From: Naegleria gruberi
Taxonomy: Eukaryota
Direction: 5' to 3' (one strand)
DNA: 64,000 bases
NCBI GenBank assembly: GCA_000004985.1
Contig: GG738855.1
Part shown: piece by piece, positions 981 through 57,701 of the stretch
Position numbering within the stretch: the stretch's first letter is position 1
Layout: the number at the start of each line of letters is the position of its first letter
Position numbers and translations under genes: made by a program
The notes under the pieces: model-generated
What the model saw: only the letters and a program-made list of their open reading frames with translations
The model's database searches: none
Told to the model about the DNA's origin: nothing

Positions 981-990
981 TTGGCGCCAA
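981..990. promoter_or_regulatory. Perfect palindrome TTGGCGCCAA (E2F-like double half-site), 105 nt upstream of the NEK kinase ATG
   Basis: Read directly as gaagTTGGCGCCAAaaca. It is a GC-rich 10-mer in an AT-rich spacer. The same 10-mer recurs at 9334, 31509 and 57692, each time in an intergenic promoter region. Confidence 0.55.
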
Positions 991-1094
991 AACATTAAAA
1001 AAAAATACAACAAGATTAATTCGAGTAGAAACCCCATCACGAGTCGAGTCAGTTGTATAGTAATTGTGCTAGGAAGCTAGATTGTAAATAGTGA

Positions 1095-9333: not shown

Positions 9334-9343
9334 TTGGCGCCAA
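9334..9343. promoter_or_regulatory. Perfect palindrome TTGGCGCCAA, 151 nt upstream of the UBE2S-like ATG, with TAACGG (Myb/MSA-like core) 8 nt to its left
   Basis: Read directly as acgTAACGGtttggaaTTGGCGCCAAgaat. Confidence 0.55.
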
Positions 9344-9493
9344 GAATAAATGCTCATCAGACGTTATTTAAAATTCAAAAAAAAACTACAACACTCTTCA
9401 AAGGTCGTTTGCAGTACATCTTGACGACGACTATTAATTTTAGGAAGACTATCTTCATCTCTTCTATTTATACAATTATAATAATTTAATACA

Positions 9494-10195
9494 ATGAGTA
9501 CTTTCTTGCCACCAAATACACTCCAAAGAGTAACCAAGGAAATTTTCGACCTTCAAAAGAACAAGATTGATGGAATTGAAATTCTCACCTATGATCCTGT
9601 TAGAAATGTAGACTTGTTGAGTGATTTGAGCGAGATTTATGCTTCTATTGATGGTCCACAAGGTACTCCATTCGAAGGAGGTAAATTTACTATCAAATTG
9701 GTCTTGGATCACGAATTCCCTAATAAGCCACCAAAGGGATATTTCGTTACCAAGATTTTCCACCCAAATGTTTCTACACGTGAAGGTGAAATTTGTGTGA
9801 ATACATTGAAGAGAGATTGGAAGTCTACTCTTGGTTTCAGACATGTTCTCATGGTTATTCGTTGTTTGATGATTGAACCAAATCCTGATAGTGCTCTCAA
9901 TGCTGAAGCAGGTAGACTTATTCAAGATAACTATGAAGGTTATTCAAACAAGGCTAAGATGTTCACAGATATCTATGCCAAACAACAACAAGGTGTCACA
10001 AGTCAATCAGAACCTGAAGTGTCCAAGACCATCTCTGAAGAAACTGTTGTTGATTCCGAAAATGCTAAGGAAAATATTTGTAATGTAAATCAAACCCAAC
10101 AAAAGAAACCACTCCTCTTACTCAAAAAGCCAACTACCACCACAACCAATACTTCTACTGTTGCCAAAAAACCAGCAGGTTTGAAACGTCTGTAA
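9494..10195 (+). CDS. UBE2S: Ubiquitin-conjugating enzyme E2, UBE2S-like (APC/C K11 chain-elongating E2 family)
   Basis: A single 233-aa ORF. It contains FPNKPPKGYFVTKIFHPNVSTREGEICVNTLKRDWKSTLGFRHVLMVIRCLMIEPNPDSALNAEAGRL, which closely parallels the UBE2S UBC core (FP..PPKGYFLTKIFHPNV...GEICVNVLKRDW...HPNPESALNEEAG). It has a long C-terminal extension ending in a basic patch (KKPLLLLKKP...AKKPAGLKRL). Confidence 0.88.
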   Translation: MSTFLPPNTLQRVTKEIFDLQKNKIDGIEILTYDPVRNVDLLSDLSEIYASIDGPQGTPFEGGKFTIKLVLDHEFPNKPPKGYFVTKIFHPNVSTREGEICVNTLKRDWKSTLGFRHVLMVIRCLMIEPNPDSALNAEAGRLIQDNYEGYSNKAKMFTDIYAKQQQGVTSQSEPEVSKTISEETVVDSENAKENICNVNQTQQKKPLLLLKKPTTTTTNTSTVAKKPAGLKRL

Positions 10196-12931: not shown

Positions 12932-12939
12932 TTTGCCGC
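12932..12939. promoter_or_regulatory. TTTGCCGC, matching the E2F consensus TTTSSCGC, 40 nt upstream of the Myb/SANT gene ATG
   Basis: Read directly as aagtTTTTGCCGCCttttttt. It is a single 8-mer match, so chance occurrence is not excluded. Confidence 0.3.
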
Positions 12940-12978
12940 CTTTTTTTAAATATCAAACGAATTGAAAATCAAAACAAA

Positions 12979-23644: not shown

Positions 23645-23890
23645 CAGTTAGAGTTTGTTGCATCCTTTTTGGAATCTTCCTCTACATTTACACAAGAGAG
23701 TTGTTTGTGATTAATAATGAATTTGATGATTTATTGGCGGAAGATCGTTTTCTTGTCATTTCTTTAATATCGTTTCTGTGACAAGTGAAATCTTCAAAAG
23801 ATGTTTGGCTGATGGTTATTATTGGTTACCAAATCATAACATCCTTTAAAATAATTATTCCTCTTTGTGAACTATTCAATTAAACTAAAG
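23645..23890. repeat. Direct repeat copy B, a diverged copy of 22137..22335 lying 3' of the DUF4116 gene
   Basis: See copy A. This copy contains a dead start region of an F-box/TM paralogue and a copy of the promoter spacer. Confidence 0.7.
23688..23759 (-). pseudogene. Truncated 5' stub of an F-box/TM paralogue (24 codons then stop)
   Basis: The minus strand from 23759 reads ATG ACA AGA AAA CGA TCT TCC GCC AAT AAA TCA.. = MTRKRSSANKSSNSLLITNNSLV*. The intact neighbour begins MTRKRSSTNKSNHQIQTSE... (22182 downwards). No continuing ORF follows. Confidence 0.6.
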
Positions 23891-31508: not shown

Positions 31509-31518
31509 TTGGCGCCAA
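31509..31518. promoter_or_regulatory. Perfect palindrome TTGGCGCCAA in the 622-nt divergent spacer between CK1 (206 nt away) and the GAF-domain gene (408 nt away)
   Basis: Read directly as gtctaTTGGCGCCAAcgcctc. Confidence 0.5.
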
Positions 31519-40811: not shown

Positions 40812-40948
40812 TTTTTTATAATAATTTAATAAATAAATTTTCGCGTTTTTCCATTCAACCAAGAGTATGGACCATTTTAGTTTTGGAAGGAAAAGCGGAT
40901 CTCCATTTTGTAAAGTTAAGCTCAATTGAAATTAATTAATTGAATAAG

Positions 40949-41911
40949 CTAATTGAAAATCTTCCAAATGCCTCTGATTGACTTTTGGTGAACAGCATAT
41001 GGAACCTCAAGAAGACCTCTCAACATTTTCATAATATCTAACCCCATTGTTAAACCGATAATACCAGCAATAGAACCCAATAAACCTGGAATATCTGTCG
41101 ATAGGACTTCATCAATAACTTGAACATCAAGCGTTCCATAAGAGACAGAGATAATAATATCTGCAGAACTGGCATTCGATATTTTGATTTGTGACAAGGT
41201 TGGCTCCCACAGTGTAGTTGAATTCCCATCAAGAAAGTTCTTTGTCACCTTATTCAGAGTATACATATTATCCTTGTATGGAGAAGCAAATTGTGTCTCT
41301 GCAAAAATGTCAGCTTCAGCAGCTATTTCATGGAATGAAATCTGAGCACCATATTTCCCTGCAGTAGGAGCTTTCATTTTAAAGTTCAATGATATTGATC
41401 CTCCAAATCCTGCAGTTGATGTTGTCTTAATACTCTTAATTTCATTATTAAGAAAATAACAATTAAATTTCAGTCCAGAAGTTACAATCTCCTTCTTTTG
41501 ATTTGTAATGGTTGTTGAAGACTTTACTCCAGAGCTGGAGTAAGAATAAGCTCCAGTAAAAGTAATATCACAATAATCACAAGCTTCGGAAGGAGGCTTG
41601 GCATTATAATTACAAATGGTCATCCCAGGAAATTCCATCTTATCCTGAGTGACATACGAGATTGTTGTTGTAGGCTGGTTTTTACTCTTCTCATAGGTAT
41701 CCGATACGTCATAAATATACCAGCCACTAAATCCTAGAAAAATCAACCAACCAATAATTGCGAAAATATCCCTTACTGCAAATTTCCATTTCTTTTTAGG
41801 AGCAGCTGGAGCAGAAATTTGTATACCTATTTTCTCTCCAACCTTTTCAACTCCTTCTACAAGAGTATGCACGGGAACAGTTGAATTCATTTTTTTAAGC
41901 ATGTAGTTCAT
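40949..41911 (-). CDS. Miniature ENaC/DEG/ASIC-family-like two-TM channel subunit (about 313-320 aa)
   Basis: A single ORF, with an alternative ATG at 41890 in an A-run context. TM1 is IFAIIGWLIFLGFSGWYIY, followed by EFPGMTICNYN (compare the family post-TM1 motif FPAVT.CN). A roughly 210-aa ectodomain follows, then IPGLLGSIAGIIGLTMGLDIMKMLRGL (compare LLGDIGGQMGLFIGASILT..E preceding and within TM2). Confidence 0.62.
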   Translation of the reverse strand: MNYMLKKMNSTVPVHTLVEGVEKVGEKIGIQISAPAAPKKKWKFAVRDIFAIIGWLIFLGFSGWYIYDVSDTYEKSKNQPTTTISYVTQDKMEFPGMTICNYNAKPPSEACDYCDITFTGAYSYSSSGVKSSTTITNQKKEIVTSGLKFNCYFLNNEIKSIKTTSTAGFGGSISLNFKMKAPTAGKYGAQISFHEIAAEADIFAETQFASPYKDNMYTLNKVTKNFLDGNSTTLWEPTLSQIKISNASSADIIISVSYGTLDVQVIDEVLSTDIPGLLGSIAGIIGLTMGLDIMKMLRGLLEVPYAVHQKSIRGIWKIFN

Positions 41912-42035
41912 ATTGTATTTGGGGTGTTTCTACAGAGAGTGTATGAACTTGAACATAAAAGCGGGAGATGAATGGCTTCTCGATTATGTTTATTAAATTC
42001 ATAATGTATTATATTACATTGTTGGTTATTAAACC

Positions 42036-43046: not shown

Positions 43047-43055
43047 TTCCCGCGC
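43047..43055. promoter_or_regulatory. TTCCCGCGC (near-consensus E2F-type site) in the divergent spacer, 70 nt from the ATG at 42977
   Basis: Read directly as gttaTTCCCGCGCattg. It is one position short of TTTSSCGC. Confidence 0.3.
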
Positions 43056-43282
43056 ATTGTACTCTGGAGACATTATTGTAGTGCGATTGATCAGAATGGC
43101 TTGAGGGTTTTGAGGTGAAAGAATGGAAATTGAGCTCCAACTAAGAATAAGTTCCCATTTCAAATAATTGTCAATGGCTCAATGGATTGTTGAGCTTGTA
43201 TGTCAAATTATCACTGTGGCAAAGATTAGACCAAAGAATTCAAGTTTGGTTGCTATGTTTGTCTAAACTTATTGTACTCTAA

Positions 43283-46703: not shown

Positions 46704-46714
46704 TTTCCCGCCAA
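46704..46714. promoter_or_regulatory. TTTCCCGCCAA (canonical E2F-type site), 76-86 nt upstream of the CEP41 ATG
   Basis: Read directly as aatagTTTCCCGCCAAtcag in the 139-nt spacer. Confidence 0.5.
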
Positions 46715-46789
46715 TCAGAGTACAAATTTCAAATCAAAAAAAAATTCAACTTTGGATTTTTAATCTCCATTATACTGCACTGTTGTATT

Positions 46790-47787
46790 ATGAGCTGCTA
46801 TTTTAAACCTATTGGTGATGCTAAGGTAGGTTGGGAATATATTGTATGATGATGATGGTCTAATTATTCTTTTGTTTTAATTTAAATCAAAATAACAACA
46901 ATAGATTTTGGAGAAGAAGGCACCATCAAGTGTTTGTTTTAAAGATGTAAGATCATCACTGGATACAGGAAAAGTAAAAAAGAAGGATGATTCAGGTAAG
47001 TTCAAAGATCTTGAATGTTTCCGAACATTACTTTCCTAACAACAGGCGATTCTAAATTATTTAAAAAAGTTGAAAACTTTAAGAGAATGAAAGGAACTGA
47101 ATTAATGAAACTCATTCTTCTCAAATTAAATTCGCAAAATAACACCTCACAAACAGAGCCTCTAGAACATGCTCCACCATCACCAAGTGGATCAAAAAGC
47201 TTGTATTCATCTATGGCTTCTTGCACATTCTCTGAAGCCAAATTAGCAGTGCATCAATCTGATCCAATCCTTGTAAAAACCAGATTGAAGGAAGATGTTC
47301 ATGATGTGGATAATATGGTACTCTTATTGGATGTTAGAGATACAGATGAATATTCAGTATGTCACATCCAGACAGCTTATAGATATCCAGCTGCTACAGT
47401 GAATAGAACTGTTAATCCATTTACACCTGAAATGCTTTCTTTTGTAAGTGTTTAAATCTTTAAAATTGGAACCTTATTGGAATTATTAAGAAAAATCATC
47501 CTCTCAAAAAAATTGTAATATATGACAGGGACGAAAAGATTGCTTGTCCTGCTGCCAACCTTCTCTTTGAAAAGGGTTTTGATAATATTGTAGTTCTTAG
47601 TGGAGGCTTACAAGAATTCTTCCAAAAACACCCAGAGCTCATTGTTGGAGAAGTGCCAAAGGAATGGTATCCTCCTGTTCTAAAGAAGAAAACAAGACCT
47701 CCTTCTGTCGCTAGCTTGAACTCAACAAAGAAGGCTTCGATTACAAAAGAGAAGACGAAATCAACAGGACCAAAACCATTCAAGTAA
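46790..47787 (+). CDS. CEP41: Centrosomal protein CEP41 (rhodanese-domain ciliary/basal-body protein)
   Basis: Model: join(46790..46825,46905..46995,47046..47443,47491..47787). The introns are 79, 50 and 47 nt (GTAGGT, GTAAGT, GTAAGT donors; AG acceptors). The joined protein has [66 protein letters not shown] and [33 protein letters not shown]. These parallel human CEP41 [60 protein letters not shown] and [34 protein letters not shown]. Confidence 0.85.
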
Positions 47788-50477: not shown

Positions 50478-51865
50478 TTACTTTTCATAAATTCTATGCA
50501 AATAAATGGTTAGTGGTTCATATTGATCAGTGGCTTCTTCAATGTCAAAACAGTAAGCTTTTGGATATTTTGGTGGTTCTTTTGAAGAGATAGATAGTCC
50601 CTCTGATTCGGCCTCTACTCTTGATATTCCACAAAATGTTTGAAGAGATTCAACAAGGGATGTTGCATTTTCACTCAAAGGATACTCAATTGAATCATTT
50701 TCTGCCTTCTTTCTCCTTTCGTTTGTATAAATTGCTTGTTGATGAAAGGAAAAAATGTTTTCTTTAGTTTCTGATAAGGCAACATCTATTTTGATTCCAC
50801 TCCATTCAGTATCATACTCCTCTGAATCAAATCTATTATCCCTTATTGTAAAGTAGTGTAAATTATCCTTATTGGGAGTATCACATGATTGTCTCATCAT
50901 TTTCTTGAGGAGATCAATAGGAGAACGGTCAATTTGAATTTTCATTGAACGATTGCCAGAGAGAGAACCATCCCAACTACGTAATTGACCCTTCTTGATT
51001 TGTACTGGCTTGTTTGGTTTAACCTTGAGTTTCCAACTCAAAATCATTTCATCTGAATTACCTCCAGGATATCGACTGAATAAAAATTAATAAACTCATT
51101 GAATTAAGAAACATACTCTAGTGCCATGAATAGAATACTGATTGATAGTGAGCAATTCTTCTTGTACTCTTCAACAACAGATGGTAGATTTGAGGTTAGG
51201 TGAACACTAAATCTAGGATCCACCTTCTTACTTCTCATCACTTGTACAAACTCATTTCTATTCATCATATCACAAATGCACGAGTTAAACTTTCCATACA
51301 TTCTAGAATTCAACACTGCCAAATTTGCAAATGATTCAGCATTGAGAAACTTTGAAATTTCATAAATCAAATCATTGGTAAACTCTTCCAATGCACTTGT
51401 TCGTGTGAGTGTTGAGCTTGACATTTTAATCTTTTTAGAAAGATTTTCCTCTTCATCAATTGTAATTTCCAAACTTCTCTTCTTCTCTTGTTTTAACAAT
51501 TCCTCAATTCTTTTCTTATCATTGGCTTTTAATTTTTTTAATCCGTGTATTTCGTGATTCTTCAATTTTTCAACCAAATCATCATCTTTGATATATTCTA
51601 AATTAAATATTATTTGTTATTGATGATGATGGTGGTGTGTGATTATAAAGTATTTACCTTCAAAATTGTACCATTCTGGATAATTTCCACCAAAACTATC
51701 AACCTCTGATCTGACAATCTTTCCAATCCTAAGAACACTTTGTGGAATATTCTTGCCAGTCAACTTGCATTTTGATCGGCTTGATTTACTGTACTCGATC
51801 ATATAATCACCTAGTGGTGGAAATTCAGGCATTTTTTCTTGTGTTTTCTTTCTGTTTGCAAACAT
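50478..51865 (-). CDS. Hypothetical protein (about 428 aa) with a PARP-type zinc-finger-like N-terminus lacking most zinc ligands, an F-box-like segment, and an unknown C-terminal domain
   Basis: Model: complement(join(50478..51075,51117..51597,51658..51865)). Introns of 41 nt (GTATGT..TTCAG) and 60 nt (GTAAAT..TTTAG) join three track ORFs in frame. DYMIEYSKSSRSKCKLTGKNIPQSVLRIGKIVRSEVDSFGGNYPEWYNFE follows the zf-PARP template (EYAKSGRS.CK.C...I.K..LR......S..FDG....WYH..C), but only the first Cys is kept. EEFTNDLIYEISKFLNAESFANLAVLNSRMYGKF is F-box-like. Confidence 0.55.
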
Positions 51866-52151
51866 TTCTGGTTTTTATCTGTGGCCACTGGATGGTTGTT
51901 TGGAAGTAAAAGAATAGAAATTGTAAACTAATGAAAAGTGCGCGCAACGGGATGTGTTTGTGTTGTTTCTGCGAGTCAATTTTGTAAAACTCATGCTGGG
52001 GTTGAATTTATTTTGATACAATGTTATTGAAAAAGCTGACAAACAAACCTTATTGGAATATTTCACACACCACAAAAGAAAATTAGGAATCACAAATTGA
52101 TAAGGACCTTAACGATTCTTACTATACGCACATCAATAGTGAAAACAATAT

Positions 52152-52757
52152 TTATTGAGAGTAATAATCCTTTCTTGGTTTCCAAGTTTTCATTAGTTCA
52201 TTCTTTTGTTTCAAATTCTTAATAGCCTCATTTGGGTCAATAATTGCTAAATATCCAAAATTGAGTGGATGAGTTTGACACAAAGATGGTGTAGCTGTTT
52301 CAGATAATCTCTGATTGACCTCTACTAATTTTCCTTTCACATATGATTGTATTTCCAATGAGCAAATTGTTTCTGGAGACTCATTTGAGGCATATTCAAT
52401 TTTACAAATTATTGTGTTTGGTTGAATTGAGTGACATGGTAATTTTTGTTTGTTCTTTTTTCCATTGTTGTTATTTTGTTGTTTGACCTCCTTTGGTTTT
52501 TCATCATCCTCCATGGCATTATCGGATGGTGTTGTTGTAGTTGGTGGTTGAATTGGAAAATGCACTTTTACTACTCGGAAAGTATTTTGGCAAAGAAAGT
52601 GCTTCGGAGATAAACAAATCACAAATAAACCATTCTTATGTTCTTGAATACATAAATCATAATTTAAAATTGGGTCATTACTGGTTGTTGCAGGTTGAAT
52701 ATAGTAATCATCAATATTCTCGTTGATTAAAAGTTGGGTACGTTCACATTTACTCAT
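52152..52757 (-). CDS. ABITRAM (FAM206A/Simiate)-like protein
   Basis: A single 201-aa ORF with ATG after an A-run. LFVICLSPKHFL and VKGKLVEVNQRLSETATPSLCQTHPLNFGYLAIIDPN parallel human ICVITLAESHPVL and [35 protein letters not shown], as I recall them. Confidence 0.6.
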   Translation of the reverse strand: MSKCERTQLLINENIDDYYIQPATTSNDPILNYDLCIQEHKNGLFVICLSPKHFLCQNTFRVVKVHFPIQPPTTTTPSDNAMEDDEKPKEVKQQNNNNGKKNKQKLPCHSIQPNTIICKIEYASNESPETICSLEIQSYVKGKLVEVNQRLSETATPSLCQTHPLNFGYLAIIDPNEAIKNLKQKNELMKTWKPRKDYYSQ

Positions 52758-52784
52758 TTTTTTAAATTAATTTTAAATTATTAA

Positions 52785-54906
52785 TTATTTATTGAGAGTG
52801 AATTTCTTTCGTTGTTGCTGAGAGTAAGCTAGTGTATTATACATGTTCTTGATTTCTGCTAATTGACGTTTCAATTGATCATTTTCTTCAAGTAATCGTT
52901 TCTGTTCTTCTTCTAATTCTGATTGTTGTGCTTCTGGGTCTAATCTTGGTGGAGTTCTTTGTCTAATAGATGGTAGCTCAAAGCTCGAAGATAATTGTGA
53001 AGATTCTCCTAGTTTATCCTTGAGTGCAGTTATGTGTTGTTCATAATTTCTTTTCTGTGTTTCAATAATTTCTTGGTAGGTCCTGATTTCCTCTTCCTTA
53101 GATCGTTTACTATGCTCAATTGTGAGTTTAAGAGCTTCATTTTCATCTCTGAGGAGCATTATTTCTTCCTGGAGTTGTGATGTTGAAGGATAATCGAACG
53201 TATTTCTTTCTCCTTTCAAGAATTGACATTTTCTTTCCAGTTCTGAAGTTTGCAATCGTTCTTTCATCAGTATTTCATTAGTCTCGTTCAGCTTTTGCTC
53301 CAGCTCTGTTATTTTAGATCCAGTAACTTTTTTAAGTTCTTTCAACTTTTCCAATTCTATAGTTGTAATAGTGAGTTTTAATCTTAATTCCTCATCCGGT
53401 GTGGTATTGGAAATTGGCTGTTTGAGATCGAAACTAGTATTTTGAAATTGTAGAGTGTCTAGTGCTCTTCTACTTGTGCTTTGAAGCTCATTTTTCAAAT
53501 ATTTGATGATTTCATCCTTTTGTTCAATGTCTTTGCCCTATAGAAAATATTAAGCAAAGCTTCATTAAAAGTACTACCTACCAGCCTTTTGATTTCTTGC
53601 TCTAATTGTGGAGCAGATGGTATAGATGCTCCAGATTTTGGCCTTCTTTTCTTTAAATTGTCAATTTCTGCTTTCAACAAATCGACAAGCTTGTTGTCAT
53701 TCTCGGATTTCTCAATCATTCTGGCCTGTTTGGCCTTAATCTCATTGTAGGTCTTTTCTAAAATTTTGTTTCTAGCCACAGATGCATCCAACTTATTCTT
53801 GACAGCTTTGATTTCTTCCACTTTTTCAGTAATTTCTTTTTTCAAATCGACAACTTCATTCCTTCTTTCTTGTTCAAGTTTTTCAATTGCTTTTCTTTGC
53901 CTCTCATCCACAGAAACAGTAGATAGTGTTGAAATGGAGCTGTTTTCATTGGCAGAGACTGATTGAGGAGATATACTATTAATTGTTGATGAGAGAGGAC
54001 TTGGAATATTTGAAATTGTAGGAGAAGAGATTGTTTGTGATTCTAACTTCTTTTGGAGATCCTTGACCTTATTTTTAAGTAAATAAATTTGTTGAGCTCT
54101 TCCTCTAAACCCGTCGCTATTGGTAAGAAGTGAATCAATCGACAAGTCATCACCAACTTCTTTTTGAATAAGAGCTCTCAGTTTCAAATTTTCATTCTTG
54201 TGCTTTTCTCCTTGCTCTCTAAGCATTTTCATTCGTTTCTCATAAGTTGCAGCCCTTTCTTTAAATTGTTTAAGTAATTTCATTGTTTCATCCTCTCCGT
54301 CCTCTTCTTCCACAGATCCTGAATTGGTTTCATTTAAGTTTTCCCTCACCTTAGAACTAAAATGTCTCAGATTGTTATTATTTGTGACTGTTATTGATCG
54401 ACTCGATTGTTGTAATTGTTGTACCTGTTGAGTAAGAACTGCAACTTTAGACTTTTCCTTATTCAATTTTACAATTATATTCTTATTTTTTTTTGCCAGC
54501 TCAATGAGCTTTTTGTCTCTCAAGTCTATTAATTCCTCCGAATCTTGATCATGAAGTCATTAAATTGAATCTTGTTGTAATATTACATACCATCCAAAAA
54601 CAAAGCTTCTACTTCTCGGTTTGTATTCCTCAACTCTTCCACAACTTCTTTTAAATCTCGTATTTCACTCTCCTTTGCTTCAAGCTCCTCTAGGAGAGAT
54701 TTATTTACATCTGGAGAGCCTTCCATTGCAAGTTTATCCAACTTGGCATAGGATGATGGTTTGTTGTTTCCTAAATCCTCAATATTTGGAGGAGTTTCGT
54801 CTCCGCTACTATTCTCTTCATCCAATTCCTTTTTTTTGATGATCTCCTTTGATTTTAATTCTTGTTTTGATGACGATTTTTGTAGTTGTTGTTTACTTGT
54901 CGACAT
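52785..54906 (-). CDS. Long coiled-coil protein (676 aa)
   Basis: Model: complement(join(52785..53537,53582..54543,54591..54906)). Introns of 44 nt (GTAGGT..CTATAG) and 47 nt (GTATGT..TCAAG) join three track ORFs. The exon total of 2031 nt is divisible by 3. There is heptad-rich sequence throughout. Confidence 0.75.
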
Positions 54907-54936
54907 TTTTTTATTTGAATGAAAATTGTACTCTAC

Positions 54937-54949
54937 TTTTGGCGGGAAA
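54937..54949. promoter_or_regulatory. TTTTGGCGGGAAA (canonical E2F-type site, TTTCCCGCCAAAA on the gene strand), 31 nt upstream of the coiled-coil gene ATG
   Basis: Read directly as ctacTTTTGGCGGGAAAgttt in the 99-nt spacer. Confidence 0.55.
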
Positions 54950-55005: not shown

Positions 55006-57585
55006 TTACATGATCGAACAACACTTAGCCTCCTTTTCTTGGACTGGTTTTCCTGGGTTCTTATTTGGGAGTGGTGTTGGTGGCATGAAAATAGGAGATA
55101 GTTGAATATCATCTGTGTGAAGAGTGTCATTAACATTCTTCGTTTGATTATTCTGTTTAGTGAGTGGAGGAGAGTTGGACTCAGAAGCATTAAGGTTGAC
55201 TGCAAAAATATTCTCATCAGTTTTGAGAGCACTGTTACTGGAGGAGGGTTTTTCCTTGACTGGAGTTTGTGGAGGAGATAGCTGGTATGGTGTGATGTAC
55301 TTTTCATTTTCTGGACCTTTCAAATCCTTGATATGAAAAAGAGAAAAGAATGTAGACTGAAGGGATGGATCCATTGGGTGTGGCTCCAACTTTTGTTTTC
55401 TATCAGCAAAAGGTACTGGTAAATAGAGATTTTCTCGTAATTTCCACTCATATTTGGCTCCTCTTTCGAATGGTATAGTTCTATTGTTCTGCACAACATC
55501 AATATTGTAATAGAAGGATTTGGACAGCTCATCTCTTTCCAACAAATTAGATCCTCCTCCCACGTTTACAAATGAATAGTAGAATGCAAATATTTTGAAT
55601 AATGATTGATTTCTTGAAGGGTCATTTTCAAAAATCTTGTAAAACTCTACAAAACAAGGCACATCTTCCTCAACCCAATCAAGCTCAGTAAGCTTTTTGT
55701 CAAGGAAAAGAGAAATACTGACATTGAGTATAAGTCTATAAGAATTATGGTGTGAGGAAGATATTATATCATCAACGTATCTGGTAACATCAGTTTTTCC
55801 AAAAAATGCTATTGAATGTTGCTCAATAGATCTCTTTTCAATAGCCTTGTTAAAGCTCATATCTATTACTTCCATAACAAAGTCTCGAGCTATAACTATG
55901 GAATCATAGGAGGGCTTGTGTTGTGGACTGGTTGGAGGAGAATAGAAAACGTCAGAAATATATCCAACTGGTGTTGGAGTACTAGACTTGGACTCACCAC
56001 TCATTTTAGAGAATGAAGATGATCGTGTTCTTTCCTTGTAGTTTTCCCTTCTCCACTGCATTAGTTTCCAATTTTTTGGTTGGCTTCTATCGTGCACTTC
56101 AAAAGAAGAAAAATCATTGTCATACATTTCAACACTCTCCGCAGTACTTATTTCACTAAACGTATCAGTGACATCATATTGATCTAGCTCTTGTTTAGTT
56201 TCAGGCAAAGAAGTTGCAACTGTAAGAGGACTGTTTGGCCGAGATGTGGTGAAACTTTTAGAATTTCCAGTTGTGTTGGGCCTAGAAGGTTTCTTCTTTG
56301 CTTTCATGTCCCCTATTGTTGGAGTTTTCACTCTTTGTATTTGAGTATTTACAGGAACTCTTTCCACACTCTTCCTTACATCAGTTACTATGGATGTAAG
56401 TGATGATATACTTCCTCTTCGAGGTGAATTTTGGGCTGATGGTGGTGGAAACATTGTGGAATTTGTGGGTATGGCATCTTTAAGACTTGGTTTCTTAACA
56501 GCAGTTGAACCAATACTACCACTCGATGTATTGGCTGTACTTGTCTTATCCCACTGTTGCTTCTTCTTTTCTGAGGGTTCTTTACATTTAATTTCATCGG
56601 TTGGATTGAAAAATTGAGGCTTATATCCCATATCCTTAATTGGTTTTGAAGGTTCCGATCTCCTTAATGGATCAACGGCATTTGTTTTTGTTTTTGGTTT
56701 AGATTTTGTTATTATTACTGGTTGAGGGGGTGGAGGTTGGTTAATTGTTTCAATTGTGGCTTGTTTCTTTGCTTTTTCATCATTTACATATTTTGACTCG
56801 TCTTCAAGAACTGGGGAAGCTTGGAAAAACTCATCCTCAGAAGAATCTCCAATTAAAAAGTCGTCTTCCTCCTTTTTTTCTACTTTGGAGCCGGGCACTG
56901 AGAATGTTATTTGAGTTTTTGGATTGCCTTGAATGTTAGGAGTAAAAAGCCACTCTCCACTTTCGTCTTCTTGAGCCTCGCTCAGTAATTTTGAGGCAGC
57001 CATCAATCTAATGTTATGAGCAACAGATTTTCTGTCACTAATATTGGGTAAAACCTTATCCTCTGTTAGAAGGTCTTTTTGAGATCCAGGTTTAAGGTTG
57101 AGTAGTTTTGCAGAATTTCCTAACGGAGAAGGGTAATGAATATACTTCTCATTAATTAAATAATTATTTACACCTTTCTTTTCAATTAGATTTCCACTTG
57201 GAGTTTCATATTTGATGTCTGGCATTAGAGAATCCATTTTTGTAATATAATATGCTTTGTCCCTCTCCTTTTTTACCATTATCTCCTTTTCAAAGAATTC
57301 CCCATCCATAAAACGTTTCTCTTCATCACCCATTGAGAGGTTTGCTCTCGGCGTTAGAATTGTTGGAGAAAGCAAAATGTCACTCATTTCAAGAGGTGAT
57401 AATTTACTTCCTGTTGGATCAAAGAAAGATCCTCCTAAAGATCCATTCAAATCATCAAATTCATCATCCAAAATACTTGTTTGTTTGAGCATGGTAAGAT
57501 TGGTATCCATCTCCCGCTGCATCTCCTCAATGGATTGTTGATTATCAAACAAATCCAACTCGCTATTGTCCAACAAACTAGACAT
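55006..57585 (-). CDS. Hypothetical 859-aa protein, largely disordered, with a structured region of about 200 aa near the C-terminus and a terminal CaaX box (CCSIM)
   Basis: A single ORF. It ends ...KEAKCCSIM*, and CSIM fits C-a-a-X with X=M. No family recognised for the region ILNVSISLFLDKKLTELDWVEEDVPCFVEFYKIF...FAFYYSFVNVGGG...YEWKLRENLYLPVPF. Confidence 0.68.
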   Translation of the reverse strand: MSSLLDNSELDLFDNQQSIEEMQREMDTNLTMLKQTSILDDEFDDLNGSLGGSFFDPTGSKLSPLEMSDILLSPTILTPRANLSMGDEEKRFMDGEFFEKEIMVKKERDKAYYITKMDSLMPDIKYETPSGNLIEKKGVNNYLINEKYIHYPSPLGNSAKLLNLKPGSQKDLLTEDKVLPNISDRKSVAHNIRLMAASKLLSEAQEDESGEWLFTPNIQGNPKTQITFSVPGSKVEKKEEDDFLIGDSSEDEFFQASPVLEDESKYVNDEKAKKQATIETINQPPPPQPVIITKSKPKTKTNAVDPLRRSEPSKPIKDMGYKPQFFNPTDEIKCKEPSEKKKQQWDKTSTANTSSGSIGSTAVKKPSLKDAIPTNSTMFPPPSAQNSPRRGSISSLTSIVTDVRKSVERVPVNTQIQRVKTPTIGDMKAKKKPSRPNTTGNSKSFTTSRPNSPLTVATSLPETKQELDQYDVTDTFSEISTAESVEMYDNDFSSFEVHDRSQPKNWKLMQWRRENYKERTRSSSFSKMSGESKSSTPTPVGYISDVFYSPPTSPQHKPSYDSIVIARDFVMEVIDMSFNKAIEKRSIEQHSIAFFGKTDVTRYVDDIISSSHHNSYRLILNVSISLFLDKKLTELDWVEEDVPCFVEFYKIFENDPSRNQSLFKIFAFYYSFVNVGGGSNLLERDELSKSFYYNIDVVQNNRTIPFERGAKYEWKLRENLYLPVPFADRKQKLEPHPMDPSLQSTFFSLFHIKDLKGPENEKYITPYQLSPPQTPVKEKPSSSNSALKTDENIFAVNLNASESNSPPLTKQNNQTKNVNDTLHTDDIQLSPIFMPPTPLPNKNPGKPVQEKEAKCCSIM

Positions 57586-57691
57586 TTAAAATGTTTTTCA
57601 ATGATAATGGTGCAGATGATGTTTTGATCTATCAAATTAAGTAGTGCCTTAAATCGTCCTAGTCGTATTTTTTTTTAAATTTTTAAATCAT

Positions 57692-57701
57692 TTGGCGCCA
57701 A
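57692..57701. promoter_or_regulatory. Perfect palindrome TTGGCGCCAA (as TTTGGCGCCAA), 107 nt upstream of the ATG at 57585, with CAACGG 9 nt to its right
   Basis: Read directly as aatcaTTTGGCGCCAActcctttCAACGGcaac. Confidence 0.55.

What the first reader, a model, noticed from the sequence alone, without database searches (positions are those of the whole stretch)
54937..54949. Canonical asymmetric E2F-type sites upstream of centriole and coiled-coil genes
TTTTGGCGGGAAA (54937-54949) lies 31 nt before the 676-aa coiled-coil gene. TTTCCCGCCAA (46704-46714) lies about 80 nt before CEP41. Weaker matches are TTTGCCGC (12932-12939, before the Myb/SANT gene) and TTCCCGCGC (43047-43055). TTTCCCGCC/GGCGGGAAA is the classic E2F site in animals and plants. 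Together with the palindromic copies, about 8 of roughly 25 promoter spacers in the window carry such a GC-rich element. This hints at a conserved E2F-like regulon that includes basal-body genes in a cell that builds centrioles de novo.
Basis: partly seen in the sequence, partly recalled or inferred. Interest (0 to 1): 0.55.

Follow-up and report, generated by a model that had tools for sequence, protein, structure and literature searches.

The report
Conserved E2F-type promoter sites in Naegleria
Short GC-rich sequences that match the binding site of the cell-cycle regulator E2F lie just upstream of a few Naegleria gruberi genes, including two centriole/cilium genes, and they are kept at the same promoters in distant relatives, so they are very probably real control elements.

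Summary
The window is Naegleria gruberi. All four quoted sites are at the stated coordinates.

The fuller pattern is a 10-mer, TTGGCG[C/G][C/G]AA. It occurs at six places, as 10 strand matches against 0.13 expected. All six are non-coding and lie 30-410 nt upstream of start codons. The downstream genes are a NEK kinase, a UBE2S orthologue, CEP41, the 676-aa coiled-coil gene (identified here as a CCDC13 orthologue), the unknown gene NAEGRDRAFT_64718, and a CK1/unknown divergent pair. Housekeeping genes in the window lack the site.

The orthologous CEP41, CCDC13 and 64718 promoters in N. lovaniensis, N. fowleri, Willaertia magna and Acrasis kona all carry TTGGCGC/GCGCCAA within 50 nt of the ATG. 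That is 7 of 7 target promoters against 2 of 62 other promoters in the same loci.

N. gruberi encodes E2F, DP, a DEL/E2F7-8 type protein and Rb. Its E2F recognition helix is identical to that of human E2F4.

The best reading is promoter-proximal E2F-family binding sites. This is a new lineage for a well-known element. The proposed link to de novo basal-body assembly is plausible but untested, because the expression data could not be reached.

The parts
54937..54949 (-). Reported site. It reads TTTCCCGCCAAAA in the orientation of the downstream minus-strand gene (core 10-mer 54939-54948). It lies 30 nt upstream of the CCDC13-like ATG.
   Evidence: Orthologous promoters carry GTGCGCCAAAA (N. lovaniensis), TCGCGCCAAAA (N. 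fowleri) and TTGGCGCC (Willaertia), 29-35 nt from the ATG.
46704..46714 (+). Reported site TTTCCCGCCAA, 75 nt upstream of the CEP41 ATG (46790).
   Evidence: Orthologous CEP41 promoters carry TTTTTGGCGCCC (N. lovaniensis, 37 nt from the ATG) and ATTTGGCGCC (Acrasis kona, 9 nt from the ATG).
981..990 (.). Palindromic TTGGCGCCAA, 119 nt upstream of the ATG (1110) of a NEK-family kinase.
   Evidence: The kinase matches NEK1, 2 and 7 at 1e-65 to 1e-55 in the PDB search.
9334..9343 (.). Palindromic TTGGCGCCAA, 150 nt upstream of the ATG (9494) of a UBE2S orthologue.
   Evidence: UBE2S scores 2.5e-49 against about 1e-28 for the next match.
31509..31518 (.). Palindromic TTGGCGCCAA in a 620-nt divergent spacer. 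The flanking genes are a CK1-like kinase (ATG 31303, minus; NAEGRDRAFT_64704) and a 990-aa gene of unknown function (ATG 31926, plus; NAEGRDRAFT_64705). The target gene is ambiguous.
57692..57701 (.). Palindromic TTGGCGCCAA, 106 nt upstream of the ATG (57585, minus) of the 859-aa gene NAEGRDRAFT_64718.
   Evidence: The N. lovaniensis and N. fowleri orthologues are 32-33% identical at protein level and have different neighbouring genes. Both carry TTGGCGCCAA 22-26 nt from the ATG.
12932..12940 (+). Weaker match TTTGCCGCC, 37 nt upstream of the Myb/SANT gene ATG (12979). It is in a divergent spacer shared with the 797-aa gene (ATG 12706, minus).
   Evidence: Conservation was not tested.
43047..43055 (+). 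Weaker match TTCCCGCGC in a divergent spacer. The flanking genes are an ASC-like gene (ATG 42977, minus; 69 nt away) and NOPCHAP1-like (ATG 43283, plus; 227 nt away). It is flanked by AGAGTACAA.
52785..54906 (-). The 676-aa coiled-coil gene, a CCDC13 orthologue. Exons are 54906-54591, 54543-53582 and 53537-52785.
   Evidence: The spliced model gives 676 aa. A profile of four heterolobosean orthologues finds 338 proteins at E<=1e-10. The named ones are CCDC13 from mammal, axolotl, amphioxus, sea urchin, Nematostella and Diplonema.
46790..47787 (+). CEP41 orthologue with a rhodanese domain and at least four exons.
   Evidence: One search finds vertebrate CEP41 at 1e-27 to 1e-31 and N. lovaniensis at 70% identity.
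46717..46725 (+). AGAGTACAA, 2 nt after the CEP41 E2F-type site. The same 9-mer is at 54926-54934 (minus), 4 nt after the CCDC13 site, and at 43057-43065 (minus), abutting the 43047 site.
   Evidence: There are 7 exact copies in the window against 0.52 expected.
46736..46750 (+). A9 run followed by TTCAAC, downstream of the CEP41 site. Sister elements are at 997-1011 (+), 9377-9392 (+), 57662-57676 (-) and 54899-54912 (-). This may be the transcription-start region.
   Evidence: The pattern A{7,}N{0,3}[AT]C[AG]AC has only 5 hits in the window. All five lie downstream of strict E2F-type sites, in gene orientation. The pattern was derived after looking at the data.

Best explanation
The elements are promoter-proximal binding sites for the Naegleria E2F family: the E2F/DP heterodimer and possibly the DEL (E2F7/8-type) protein. 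The winged-helix recognition helices (RRxYD motif) of E2F and DP contact the central GGCGCC or GGCGGG core. The T- and A-rich flanks complete the TTTSSCGC-type site.

The sites sit tens of nucleotides upstream of the start codon, just before an A-run that probably marks the transcription start. A factor bound there, together with the Rb-family pocket protein that N. gruberi also encodes, could switch the promoter on or off.

The target set in this window combines cell-cycle genes (UBE2S, a NEK kinase) with centriole/cilium genes (CEP41, CCDC13) and two unknowns.

Shown here:
- The motif, its excess over chance and its restriction to non-coding DNA.
- Its conservation at orthologous promoters.
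- The presence of matching trans-factors in the species.

Inferred:
- Physical binding.
- The direction of regulation.
- When the regulon is active (cell cycle, differentiation, or both).
For: (1) Motif identity. Four sites are TTGGCGCCAA, the core of the human E2F1 SELEX consensus TTTGGCGCCAAA. Two are TTTCCCGCCAA(AA), matching the E2F7/8/RB1 ChIP cluster tTTCCCGCCAaAa and the E2F1-6/DP cluster TTCCCGCC.

(2) Excess and placement. There are 10 strand matches against 0.13 expected. All 6 loci are non-coding. An unbiased 8-mer count over 200 nt upstream of 36 start codons ranks TGGCGCCA second.

(3) Phylogenetic footprint. Seven of 7 orthologous promoters of CCDC13, CEP41 and 64718 carry TTGGCGC/GCGCCAA within 150 nt of the ATG. 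The species are N. lovaniensis, N. fowleri, Willaertia magna and Acrasis kona. Only 2 of 62 other promoters in the same loci carry it. All 9 strict sites there fall in the 31 kb of intergenic DNA and none in the 123 kb of genic DNA. In an alignment of eight promoters, the only invariant positions are six columns within the TT[GC][GC]CGCC core.

(4) Trans-factors. Medina et al. 2016 list NgruE2F, NgruDP, NgruDEL and NgruRB. NgruE2F aligns with the E2F4 chain of the E2F4-DP2 crystal entry 1CF7 at 7e-25, and the stretch [24 protein letters not shown] is identical. NgruDP aligns with DP2 at 5e-28.

(5) Selectivity. IleRS, LeuRS, SRP54, thiolase, Pex2/12, RhoGEF and GT18 promoters lack the site. 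UBE2S and NEK are cell-cycle-type genes.
Against: - No binding or expression evidence was available.
- No canonical E2F target (MCM, PCNA, RNR, cyclins) lies in the window or the fetched loci, so the classic regulon could not be checked.
- The 10-mer pattern was refined after looking at the data. The a-priori pattern TTTSSCGC alone is only modestly enriched (5 against 1.06).
- Transcription start sites are unknown, so 'promoter-proximal' is measured from ATG codons.
- N. lovaniensis and N. fowleri are sister species, so their sites are not fully independent observations.
- Amoebae have no centrioles. A purely cell-cycle E2F programme driving CEP41 and CCDC13 therefore needs an extra explanation.
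Confidence: 0.75

Rival explanations
1. The element is a real, conserved promoter element, but a different and possibly lineage-specific factor reads it. NF-Y at CCAAT could account for a subset. On this view the resemblance to E2F sites is coincidental.
For: The CEP41 site reads GCCAATCAG, a good CCAAT box. Several sites contain GCCAA. No binding data exist. The sites are accompanied by other species-specific elements (AGAGTACAA, A-run plus TACAAC), so other factors clearly act at these promoters.
Against: The invariant part across orthologues is GGCGC/GCGCC, not CCAAT. N. lovaniensis CEP41 has GGCGCCCTTT and Willaertia CCDC13 has GGCGCCGTTT. The match to the E2F consensus extends over 10-13 nt. 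The species has E2F and DP with unchanged recognition helices.
Confidence: 0.15
2. The sites are E2F-family sites read mainly by the atypical DEL (E2F7/8-type) repressor. It would keep centriole/cilium genes silent in amoebae until differentiation. The asymmetric TTTCCCGCCAAAA sites would be DEL sites and the palindromes E2F/DP sites. This is a sub-variant of the best explanation.
For: The CCDC13 site is an exact TTTCCCGCCAAAA, the human E2F7/8 motif cluster. NgruDEL exists with two DNA-binding domains. Both asymmetric sites precede centriole/cilium genes and share an adjacent AGAGTACAA.
Against: The asymmetry is not conserved. The orthologous sites are GCGCCAAAA or TTGGCGCC, which are palindrome-type. 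Only two or three examples exist.
Confidence: 0.15
3. The matches arise by chance or from base composition, as rare GC-rich words in AT-rich spacers, and have no function.
For: TTTSSCGC alone reaches 5 matches in 1 of 100 shuffles. TTTGGCGCCAAA with up to 2 mismatches gives 7 against 2.25 expected.
Against: The 10-mer gives 10 matches against 0.13 expected, with 0 of 100 shuffles reaching that. Non-coding DNA is poorer in GC (30%) than coding DNA (35%), yet it holds all the sites. Conservation is 7 of 7 target promoters against 2 of 62 others, P about 5e-10.
Confidence: 0.02
4. The palindrome has a non-transcriptional role, for example as a replication-origin, chromatin-boundary or DNA-modification target. 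It contains CpG, and Naegleria has Tet-like enzymes.
For: It is a palindrome with a central CpG in CpG-depleted DNA. The CpG observed/expected ratio is 0.38 in coding DNA and 0.57 in non-coding DNA.
Against: The site keeps a position close to start codons of specific, orthologous genes. It is absent from 3' spacers except for one 7-mer at 23734. Nothing else supports such a role.
Confidence: 0.05

Closest known systems
Canonical E2F/DP binding sites of animals and plants (TTTSSCGC; SELEX TTTGGCGCCAAA)
   Same: The sequence is the same over 10-12 nt and includes the palindromic form. The location is close to gene starts. The organism has E2F, DP and Rb, with recognition helices identical or near-identical to the human proteins crystallised on DNA (1CF7). 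The targets include cell-cycle-type genes (UBE2S, NEK).
   Different: The lineage is Heterolobosea (Discoba), where I found no description of such sites. Binding and regulation are untested. Classic S-phase targets could not be examined. The sites come with Naegleria-specific neighbouring elements.
Atypical E2F7/E2F8 (plant DEL) sites, TTTCCCGCCAAAA
   Same: The CCDC13 site is an exact 13-mer match and the CEP41 site an 11-mer match. N. gruberi has a DEL-type protein with two DNA-binding domains.
   Different: The asymmetric form is not conserved in orthologous promoters. Nothing indicates repression.
E2F4/5-Multicilin (MCIDAS/GEMC1) programme for centriole amplification in vertebrate multiciliated cells
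   Same: E2F-family sites lie in front of centriole/cilium genes in a cell that builds basal bodies outside the normal centriole duplication cycle (review PMC12183034).
   Different: MCIDAS and GEMC1 are geminin-family cofactors known from vertebrates, and they were not searched for here. No evidence shows the Naegleria sites are used during differentiation. Only two centriole/cilium genes were examined.
CDE/CHR elements bound by DREAM (E2F4-DP-p130-MuvB) at G2/M genes
   Same: A GC-rich E2F-like element is followed a few nucleotides downstream by TTTAAA or TTTGAA-like sequence in several promoters (64718 in three species; CCDC13 in N. fowleri).
   Different: The spacing varies from 3 to 7 nt or more, whereas the CDE/CHR element has a fixed 4 nt. 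TTTAAA is common in this AT-rich genome. MuvB/LIN54 in Naegleria was not examined.
Fungal SBF/MBF sites (SCB/MCB, ACGCGT) of the G1/S regulon
   Same: A short CG-containing promoter element that defines a cell-cycle regulon.
   Different: The transcription factor family is different (KilA-N derived) and replaced E2F in fungi (Medina et al. 2016, PMC4862756). Naegleria retains the ancestral E2F/DP/Rb set.

Membership tests
E2F-family binding site (cis element) | Sequence matches the consensus TTTSSCGC / TTTGGCGCCAAA / TTTCCCGCCAAA | tested here: met
   Six sites match TTGGCGSSAA exactly. Five loci lie within 2 mismatches of the 12-mer E2F1 SELEX consensus. The CCDC13 site equals the E2F7/8 cluster 13-mer.
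E2F-family binding site (cis element) | Located in promoters, close to the gene start | tested here: met
   All six sites are non-coding. Five lie 30-150 nt upstream of an ATG; the sixth lies in a divergent spacer, 205 and 407 nt from the two flanking ATGs. In the other species the sites lie 9-37 nt upstream. Transcription starts are unknown.
E2F-family binding site (cis element) | The organism encodes E2F and DP with intact DNA-recognition residues (RRxYD helix) | tested here: met
   Sequences of NgruE2F, NgruDP, NgruDEL and NgruRB come from Medina et al. 2016 source data. Alignments to 1CF7 chains A and B show identical or near-identical recognition helices. These genes are not in the window.
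E2F-family binding site (cis element) | Evolutionary conservation at orthologous promoters | tested here: met
   Seven of 7 orthologous promoters in four species carry the strict 7-mer, against 2 of 62 other promoters.
E2F-family binding site (cis element) | Physical binding by E2F/DP (EMSA, ChIP, DAP-seq) | not testable with these tools
   No binding data for Naegleria were found in the literature searches.
E2F-family binding site (cis element) | Downstream genes are co-regulated with the cell cycle or a proliferation/differentiation switch | tested here: inconclusive
   Kennard et al. Data S2 holds RNA-seq time courses. The stored copy is cut before the window's gene ids, and CEP41 and CCDC13 are apparently unannotated.
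E2F-family binding site (cis element) | Presence upstream of classic targets (MCM, PCNA, RNR, CDC6, cyclins) | not testable with these tools
   No such genes lie in the window or the seven fetched loci. Further Naegleria loci could not be fetched because the homologue searches were exhausted.
CDE/CHR (DREAM) bipartite element | CHR (TTYRAA) exactly 4 nt downstream of the GC-rich CDE | tested here: not met
   TTTAAA or TTTGAA follows at variable distances of 3-7 nt or more, or is absent.
NF-Y CCAAT box | Invariant CCAAT pentamer conserved among orthologues | tested here: not met
   CCAAT is present only in N. gruberi CEP41 and N. lovaniensis 64718. The orthologous sites read CCAAA, CCCTT or CCGTT.
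CCDC13 family (for the 676-aa gene) | Full-length profile similarity to named metazoan CCDC13 | tested here: met
   Profile hits cover most of the length. Named members come from Suricata, Ambystoma, Branchiostoma, Lytechinus, Nematostella and Diplonema. No reciprocal search was done.

The most novel reading that the evidence does not exclude
In Heterolobosea the ancestral E2F/DP/DEL-Rb module directly controls centriole and cilium biogenesis genes (CEP41, CCDC13, NEK kinases). It would be the missing transcription factor behind Naegleria's rapid de novo basal-body programme, in an organism that lacks RFX, FOXJ1 and XAP5. That would make the E2F-centriole link seen in vertebrate multiciliated cells (E2F4/5-Multicilin) an ancient eukaryotic feature, not a vertebrate invention.
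Probability: 0.25. Interest if true: 0.8.

Novelty: new member of a known kind. Interest (0 to 1): 0.5.

Why it matters
The transcription factors behind Naegleria's amoeba-to-flagellate switch are unknown. A 2025 review notes that RFX, FOXJ1 and XAP5 are all absent and that other factors must regulate cilia genes (PMC12183034).

This work supplies a conserved, easily recognised cis element with an obvious candidate factor in front of centriole/cilium genes. That yields a concrete, testable hypothesis. The tests are a genome-wide motif scan compared with published RNA-seq clusters, and EMSA or CUT&RUN with NgruE2F/DP.

It also extends direct cis-regulatory evidence for the E2F network to Discoba. 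[quoted passage not shown]

If the sites prove to be ordinary cell-cycle E2F sites, the result is a useful annotation but not a surprise.

Tried and rejected
- Expression test. Kennard et al. (bioRxiv 10.1101/2024.01.08.573270) Data S2 lists log2 fold changes per JGI gene. The stored file is cut at about jgi_39xxx, so the window's genes (jgi_64718, 64705, 64704, 47217 and others) could not be found. The PMC copy holds no supplements. Fritz-Laylin & Cande 2010 and the published Kennard 2025 paper are not held.
- An exact look-up of the window's 859-aa protein in the contig index failed twice. N. fowleri CEP41 (P0008) is not on record, so that promoter is missing.
- Chance and composition were rejected on shuffles and conservation.
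- The NF-Y/CCAAT and CDE/CHR readings were rejected on lack of conservation and variable spacing.
- A repeat or transposon origin was considered and set aside. The sites share only the 10-mer and short neighbouring elements, and the orthologous promoters have unrelated flanks.
- Pfam gave nothing for the 676-aa, 859-aa and 990-aa proteins. Only the profile search named the first of these.
- MAFFT misaligned the N. gruberi CCDC13 site against its orthologues. The comparison for that gene rests on the anchored listing.
- TCAACCAA and TATCATCA, which also ranked high in the 8-mer count, are mostly coding or codon-repeat artefacts of windows that overlap neighbouring genes.

Full report
**Source and observation.** The window is from Naegleria gruberi. 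The 859-aa ORF at 55006-57585 (minus) is 100% identical to NCBI XP_002680080.1 / NAEGRDRAFT_64718, on a 613-kb scaffold. GC content is 32-38%.

- TTTTGGCGGGAAA (54937-54949) ends 30 nt from the ATG at 54906 of a minus-strand gene. I spliced that gene into exactly 676 aa, with exons 54906-54591, 54543-53582 and 53537-52785.
- TTTCCCGCCAA (46704-46714) lies 75 nt before an ATG at 46790.
- That ATG begins a multi-exon gene encoding a rhodanese-domain protein. Its best named homologues are vertebrate CEP41.

TTCCCGCC gives 2 against 0.14.

Listing all SSCGSS-type words showed a sharper pattern. The 10-mer TTGGCG[C/G][C/G]AA occurs at six loci.
- Four are the perfect palindrome TTGGCGCCAA, at 981, 9334, 31509 and 57692.
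- Two are TTGGCGGGAA, at 46705 (minus) and 54939 (plus).

This gives 10 strand matches against 0.13 expected, and 0 of 100 shuffles reached that number. The pattern was refined after looking at the data, so it needed independent support.

All six loci are non-coding, even though non-ORF DNA is only about 13-20% of the window and is poorer in GC than coding DNA. An unbiased 8-mer count over the 200 nt upstream of 36 start codons ranks TGGCGCCA second.

**Which genes carry the site.**
- 981-990 lies 119 nt upstream of a NEK-family kinase (NEK1 at 1.4e-65).
- 9334-9343 lies 150 nt upstream of a UBE2S orthologue. UBE2S scores 2.5e-49 against about 1e-28 for the next match.
- 31509-31518 lies in a 620-nt divergent spacer between a CK1-like kinase and a 990-aa protein of unknown function.
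- 46705 precedes CEP41.
- 54939 precedes the 676-aa gene.
- 57692 lies 106 nt upstream of the unknown 859-aa gene 64718.

The 676-aa protein has no Pfam match. A profile built from it and three heterolobosean orthologues finds 338 proteins at E<=1e-10. The named ones are CCDC13 from meerkat, axolotl, amphioxus, sea urchin, Nematostella, Diplonema and a labyrinthulid. CCDC13 is discussed extensively in a study of evolutionarily conserved centriolar-satellite components required for sperm flagellum formation (PMC12203921). So both asymmetric sites precede genuine centriole/cilium genes.

Promoters of IleRS, LeuRS, SRP54, thiolase, Pex2/12, RhoGEF, GT18 and others carry no site.

**Independent test: orthologous promoters.** I fetched the loci of the orthologues from other Heterolobosea.

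| Gene | Species | Site | Distance to ATG |
|---|---|---|---|
| 64718 | N. lovaniensis | TTGGCGCCAA | 22 nt |
| 64718 | N. fowleri | TTGGCGCCAA | 26 nt |
| CCDC13 | N. lovaniensis | GTGCGCCAAAA | 29 nt |
| CCDC13 | N. fowleri | TCGCGCCAAAA | 35 nt |
| CCDC13 | Willaertia magna | TTGGCGCC | 31 nt |
| CEP41 | N. lovaniensis | TTTTTGGCGCCC | 37 nt |
| CEP41 | Acrasis kona | ATTTGGCGCC | 9 nt |

- The 64718 orthologues are only 32-33% identical at protein level and their called neighbouring genes differ from those in the window. Yet both carry the site with otherwise unrelated flanks.
- The CCDC13 and CEP41 sites are shown.
- Across the seven loci (154 kb), the strict 7-mer TTGGCGC/GCGCCAA lies within 150 nt upstream of the ATG in 7 of 7 target promoters.
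- Only 2 of 62 other promoters carry it, which gives P about 5e-10 at the background rate.
- All nine strict sites fall in the 31 kb of intergenic DNA and none in the 123 kb of genic DNA.
- In an alignment of eight promoters, the only invariant positions are six columns within the TT[GC][GC]CGCC core.
- N. lovaniensis and N. fowleri are sister species, so the number of independent lineages is smaller than seven. Even so, the result is far beyond chance.

**What reads the site.** TTGGCGCCAA is the core of the human E2F1 HT-SELEX consensus TTTGGCGCCAAA (PMC5449588). TTTCCCGCCAAAA, the exact N. gruberi CCDC13 site, is the human E2F7/E2F8/RB1 ChIP motif cluster, and TTCCCGCC is the E2F1-6/DP/LIN9 cluster (bioRxiv 10.1101/2025.11.09.687492).

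Medina et al. 2016 (PMC4862756) catalogued one E2F, one DP, one DEL (E2F7/8-type, with two DNA-binding domains) and one Rb in N. gruberi.
- NgruE2F aligns to the E2F4 chain of the E2F4-DP2 crystal entry 1CF7 at 7e-25. The stretch [24 protein letters not shown] is identical.
- NgruDP aligns to DP2 of the same entry at 5e-28. The stretch NIRRRVYDALNVLMA-NIISK is conserved.

With unchanged recognition helices, the expected DNA specificity is the one observed. These factor genes lie outside the window, and binding itself is inferred.

**Promoter architecture (partly followed up).** The strict sites are followed, in gene orientation, by an A-run plus [AT]C[AG]AC 6-33 nt downstream:
- NEK: AAAAAAAAATACAAC
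- UBE2S: AAAAAAAAACTACAAC
- CEP41: AAAAAAAAATTCAAC
- 64718: AAAAAAAAATACGAC
- CCDC13: AAAAAAATGTCGAC, which includes the ATG

The pattern A{7,}N{0,3}[AT]C[AG]AC has only these five hits in the window, against about 1 expected. It was derived after looking at the data. A7-8 directly before the ATG is the usual start context in this window, so the A-run probably lies at or near the transcription start. That would place the E2F-type site just upstream of it, as in animal promoters.

Separately, all three TTCCCGC-type sites (43047, 46705, 54942) abut the 9-mer AGAGTACAA. That 9-mer has 7 copies in the window against 0.52 expected, and each copy is oriented like a nearby downstream gene. The CEP41 and CCDC13 promoters resemble each other over about 50 nt. 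AGAGTACAA is not found beside the orthologous sites in the other species, where only TACAAWTTT is shared.

**Interpretation.** The best explanation (confidence about 0.75) is that these are functional E2F-family binding sites.

This is partly supported. CEP41 and CCDC13 are centriole/cilium genes with conserved sites. UBE2S and NEK suggest a broader cell-cycle and centriole set.

Whether the regulon fires during differentiation is open. A 2025 review states that RFX, FOXJ1 and XAP5 are absent from Naegleria and that other factors must regulate its cilia genes. In the readable part of the Kennard et al. table, MCM4, APC6, Aurora and GCP3 show a transient rise at 40 min of differentiation. That is compatible with an E2F-like pulse, but it is only a hint.

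**Rivals.**
- A non-E2F factor, about 0.15. The invariant core is GGCGC, not CCAAT.
- A DEL-type repressor reading of the asymmetric sites. This is a sub-variant of the best explanation, and the asymmetry is not conserved.
- Chance, about 0.02.
- A non-transcriptional role, about 0.05.
- A strict CDE/CHR arrangement is not met, because the spacing varies.

**Novelty and score.** E2F sites are among the best-known eukaryotic cis elements, and E2F/DP/Rb were already known in N. gruberi. A specialist would expect such sites to exist.

I found no description of them in Naegleria or other Heterolobosea (16 papers mention both terms and none deals with promoters). The library lacks many subscription journals, so this is not a complete search.

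The finding is therefore a new member of a known kind. It has a moderately interesting and directly testable link to centriole/cilium genes. Interest is 0.5. The most novel reading not excluded is that E2F is the driver of de novo basal-body gene expression, making the E2F-centriole link ancient. I give that a probability of about 0.25.

Noticed in passing
window 46717-46725(+), 54926-54934(-), 43057-43065(-), also 808(+), 43272(-), 45319(-), 51162(-): The 9-mer AGAGTACAA occurs 7 times against 0.52 expected. All three TTCCCGC-type sites have a copy within 1-4 nt. None of the four palindromic sites has one adjacent. Each copy is oriented like a nearby downstream gene. It is not conserved beside the orthologous sites in other species. 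It may be an initiator or a partner-factor site.
   Followed up: partly
window 997-1011(+), 9377-9392(+), 46736-46750(+), 57662-57676(-), 54899-54912(-): An A7-9 run followed by [AT]C[AG]AC lies 6-33 nt downstream of five of the six strict E2F-type sites. These are the only five hits of that pattern in the window. The pattern was derived after looking at the data. It may mark the transcription-start region.
   Followed up: partly
window, e.g. 364(-), 7592(-), 7796(+), 12706(-), 17665(+), 22182(-), 22334(+), 24989(+), 40811(-), 45460(+), 49152(-), 52757(-), 63380(-): AAAAAAA(A)ATG is the usual start-codon context. Sixteen of the 43 A7+ runs in the window directly abut an ATG that starts an ORF. 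This suggests very short A-rich leaders.
   Followed up: no
window 46790-47787(+) and 52785-54906(-): The N. gruberi CEP41 and CCDC13 proteins were not returned by the protein searches; only orthologues from other species were. Both genes therefore seem to be missing from the public N. gruberi gene set. ORF-fragment calls from ENA (P0038, P0039) cover CCDC13 exons.
   Followed up: partly
window 9494-10195(+): The UBE2S orthologue reads as an uninterrupted 233-aa ORF. The NCBI entry EFC47206.1 is a 159-aa partial model.
   Followed up: no
window 52757-52785: Only 27 nt separate the CCDC13 stop codon (52785-52787) from the ATG (52757) of the next minus-strand gene. That gene encodes a 201-aa protein with a weak GCV_H-like match, and its start codon has the usual A7 context. 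There is almost no room for a separate promoter.
   Followed up: no
L005 3100-3108, 21798-21807, 15781-15787; L003 13980-13986; L006 17372-17379: Other promoters in the fetched loci also carry E2F-type sites. In Willaertia these are a 181-aa gene (TTGGCGCC, 37 nt from the ATG), a NOT2/3/5-domain gene (TTGGCGGGAA, 222 nt) and a 126-aa gene (TTGGCGG, 54 nt). In N. lovaniensis they are a 519-aa gene of unknown function (87 nt) and a hemerythrin gene (CCCGCCAA, 95 nt).
   Followed up: partly
Kennard et al. Data S2, part 1 (literature, not the window): MCM4, APC6, Aurora and GCP3 show a transient rise of about 2-3 log2 units at 40 min of amoeba-to-flagellate differentiation. Cell-cycle-type genes thus pulse during differentiation.
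   Followed up: no
window 51940-51945, 40842-40845, 41961-41966, 23734-23740: Further CG-containing words lie in spacers. TTGCGCGCAC (minus) precedes the 157-aa gene at 51577. TTTTCGCGTTTT is near the thiolase start. GCGGGA lies 50 nt upstream of the ASC-like gene at 41911. TTGGCGG lies in a 3'-3' spacer at 23734. None was evaluated further.
   Followed up: no
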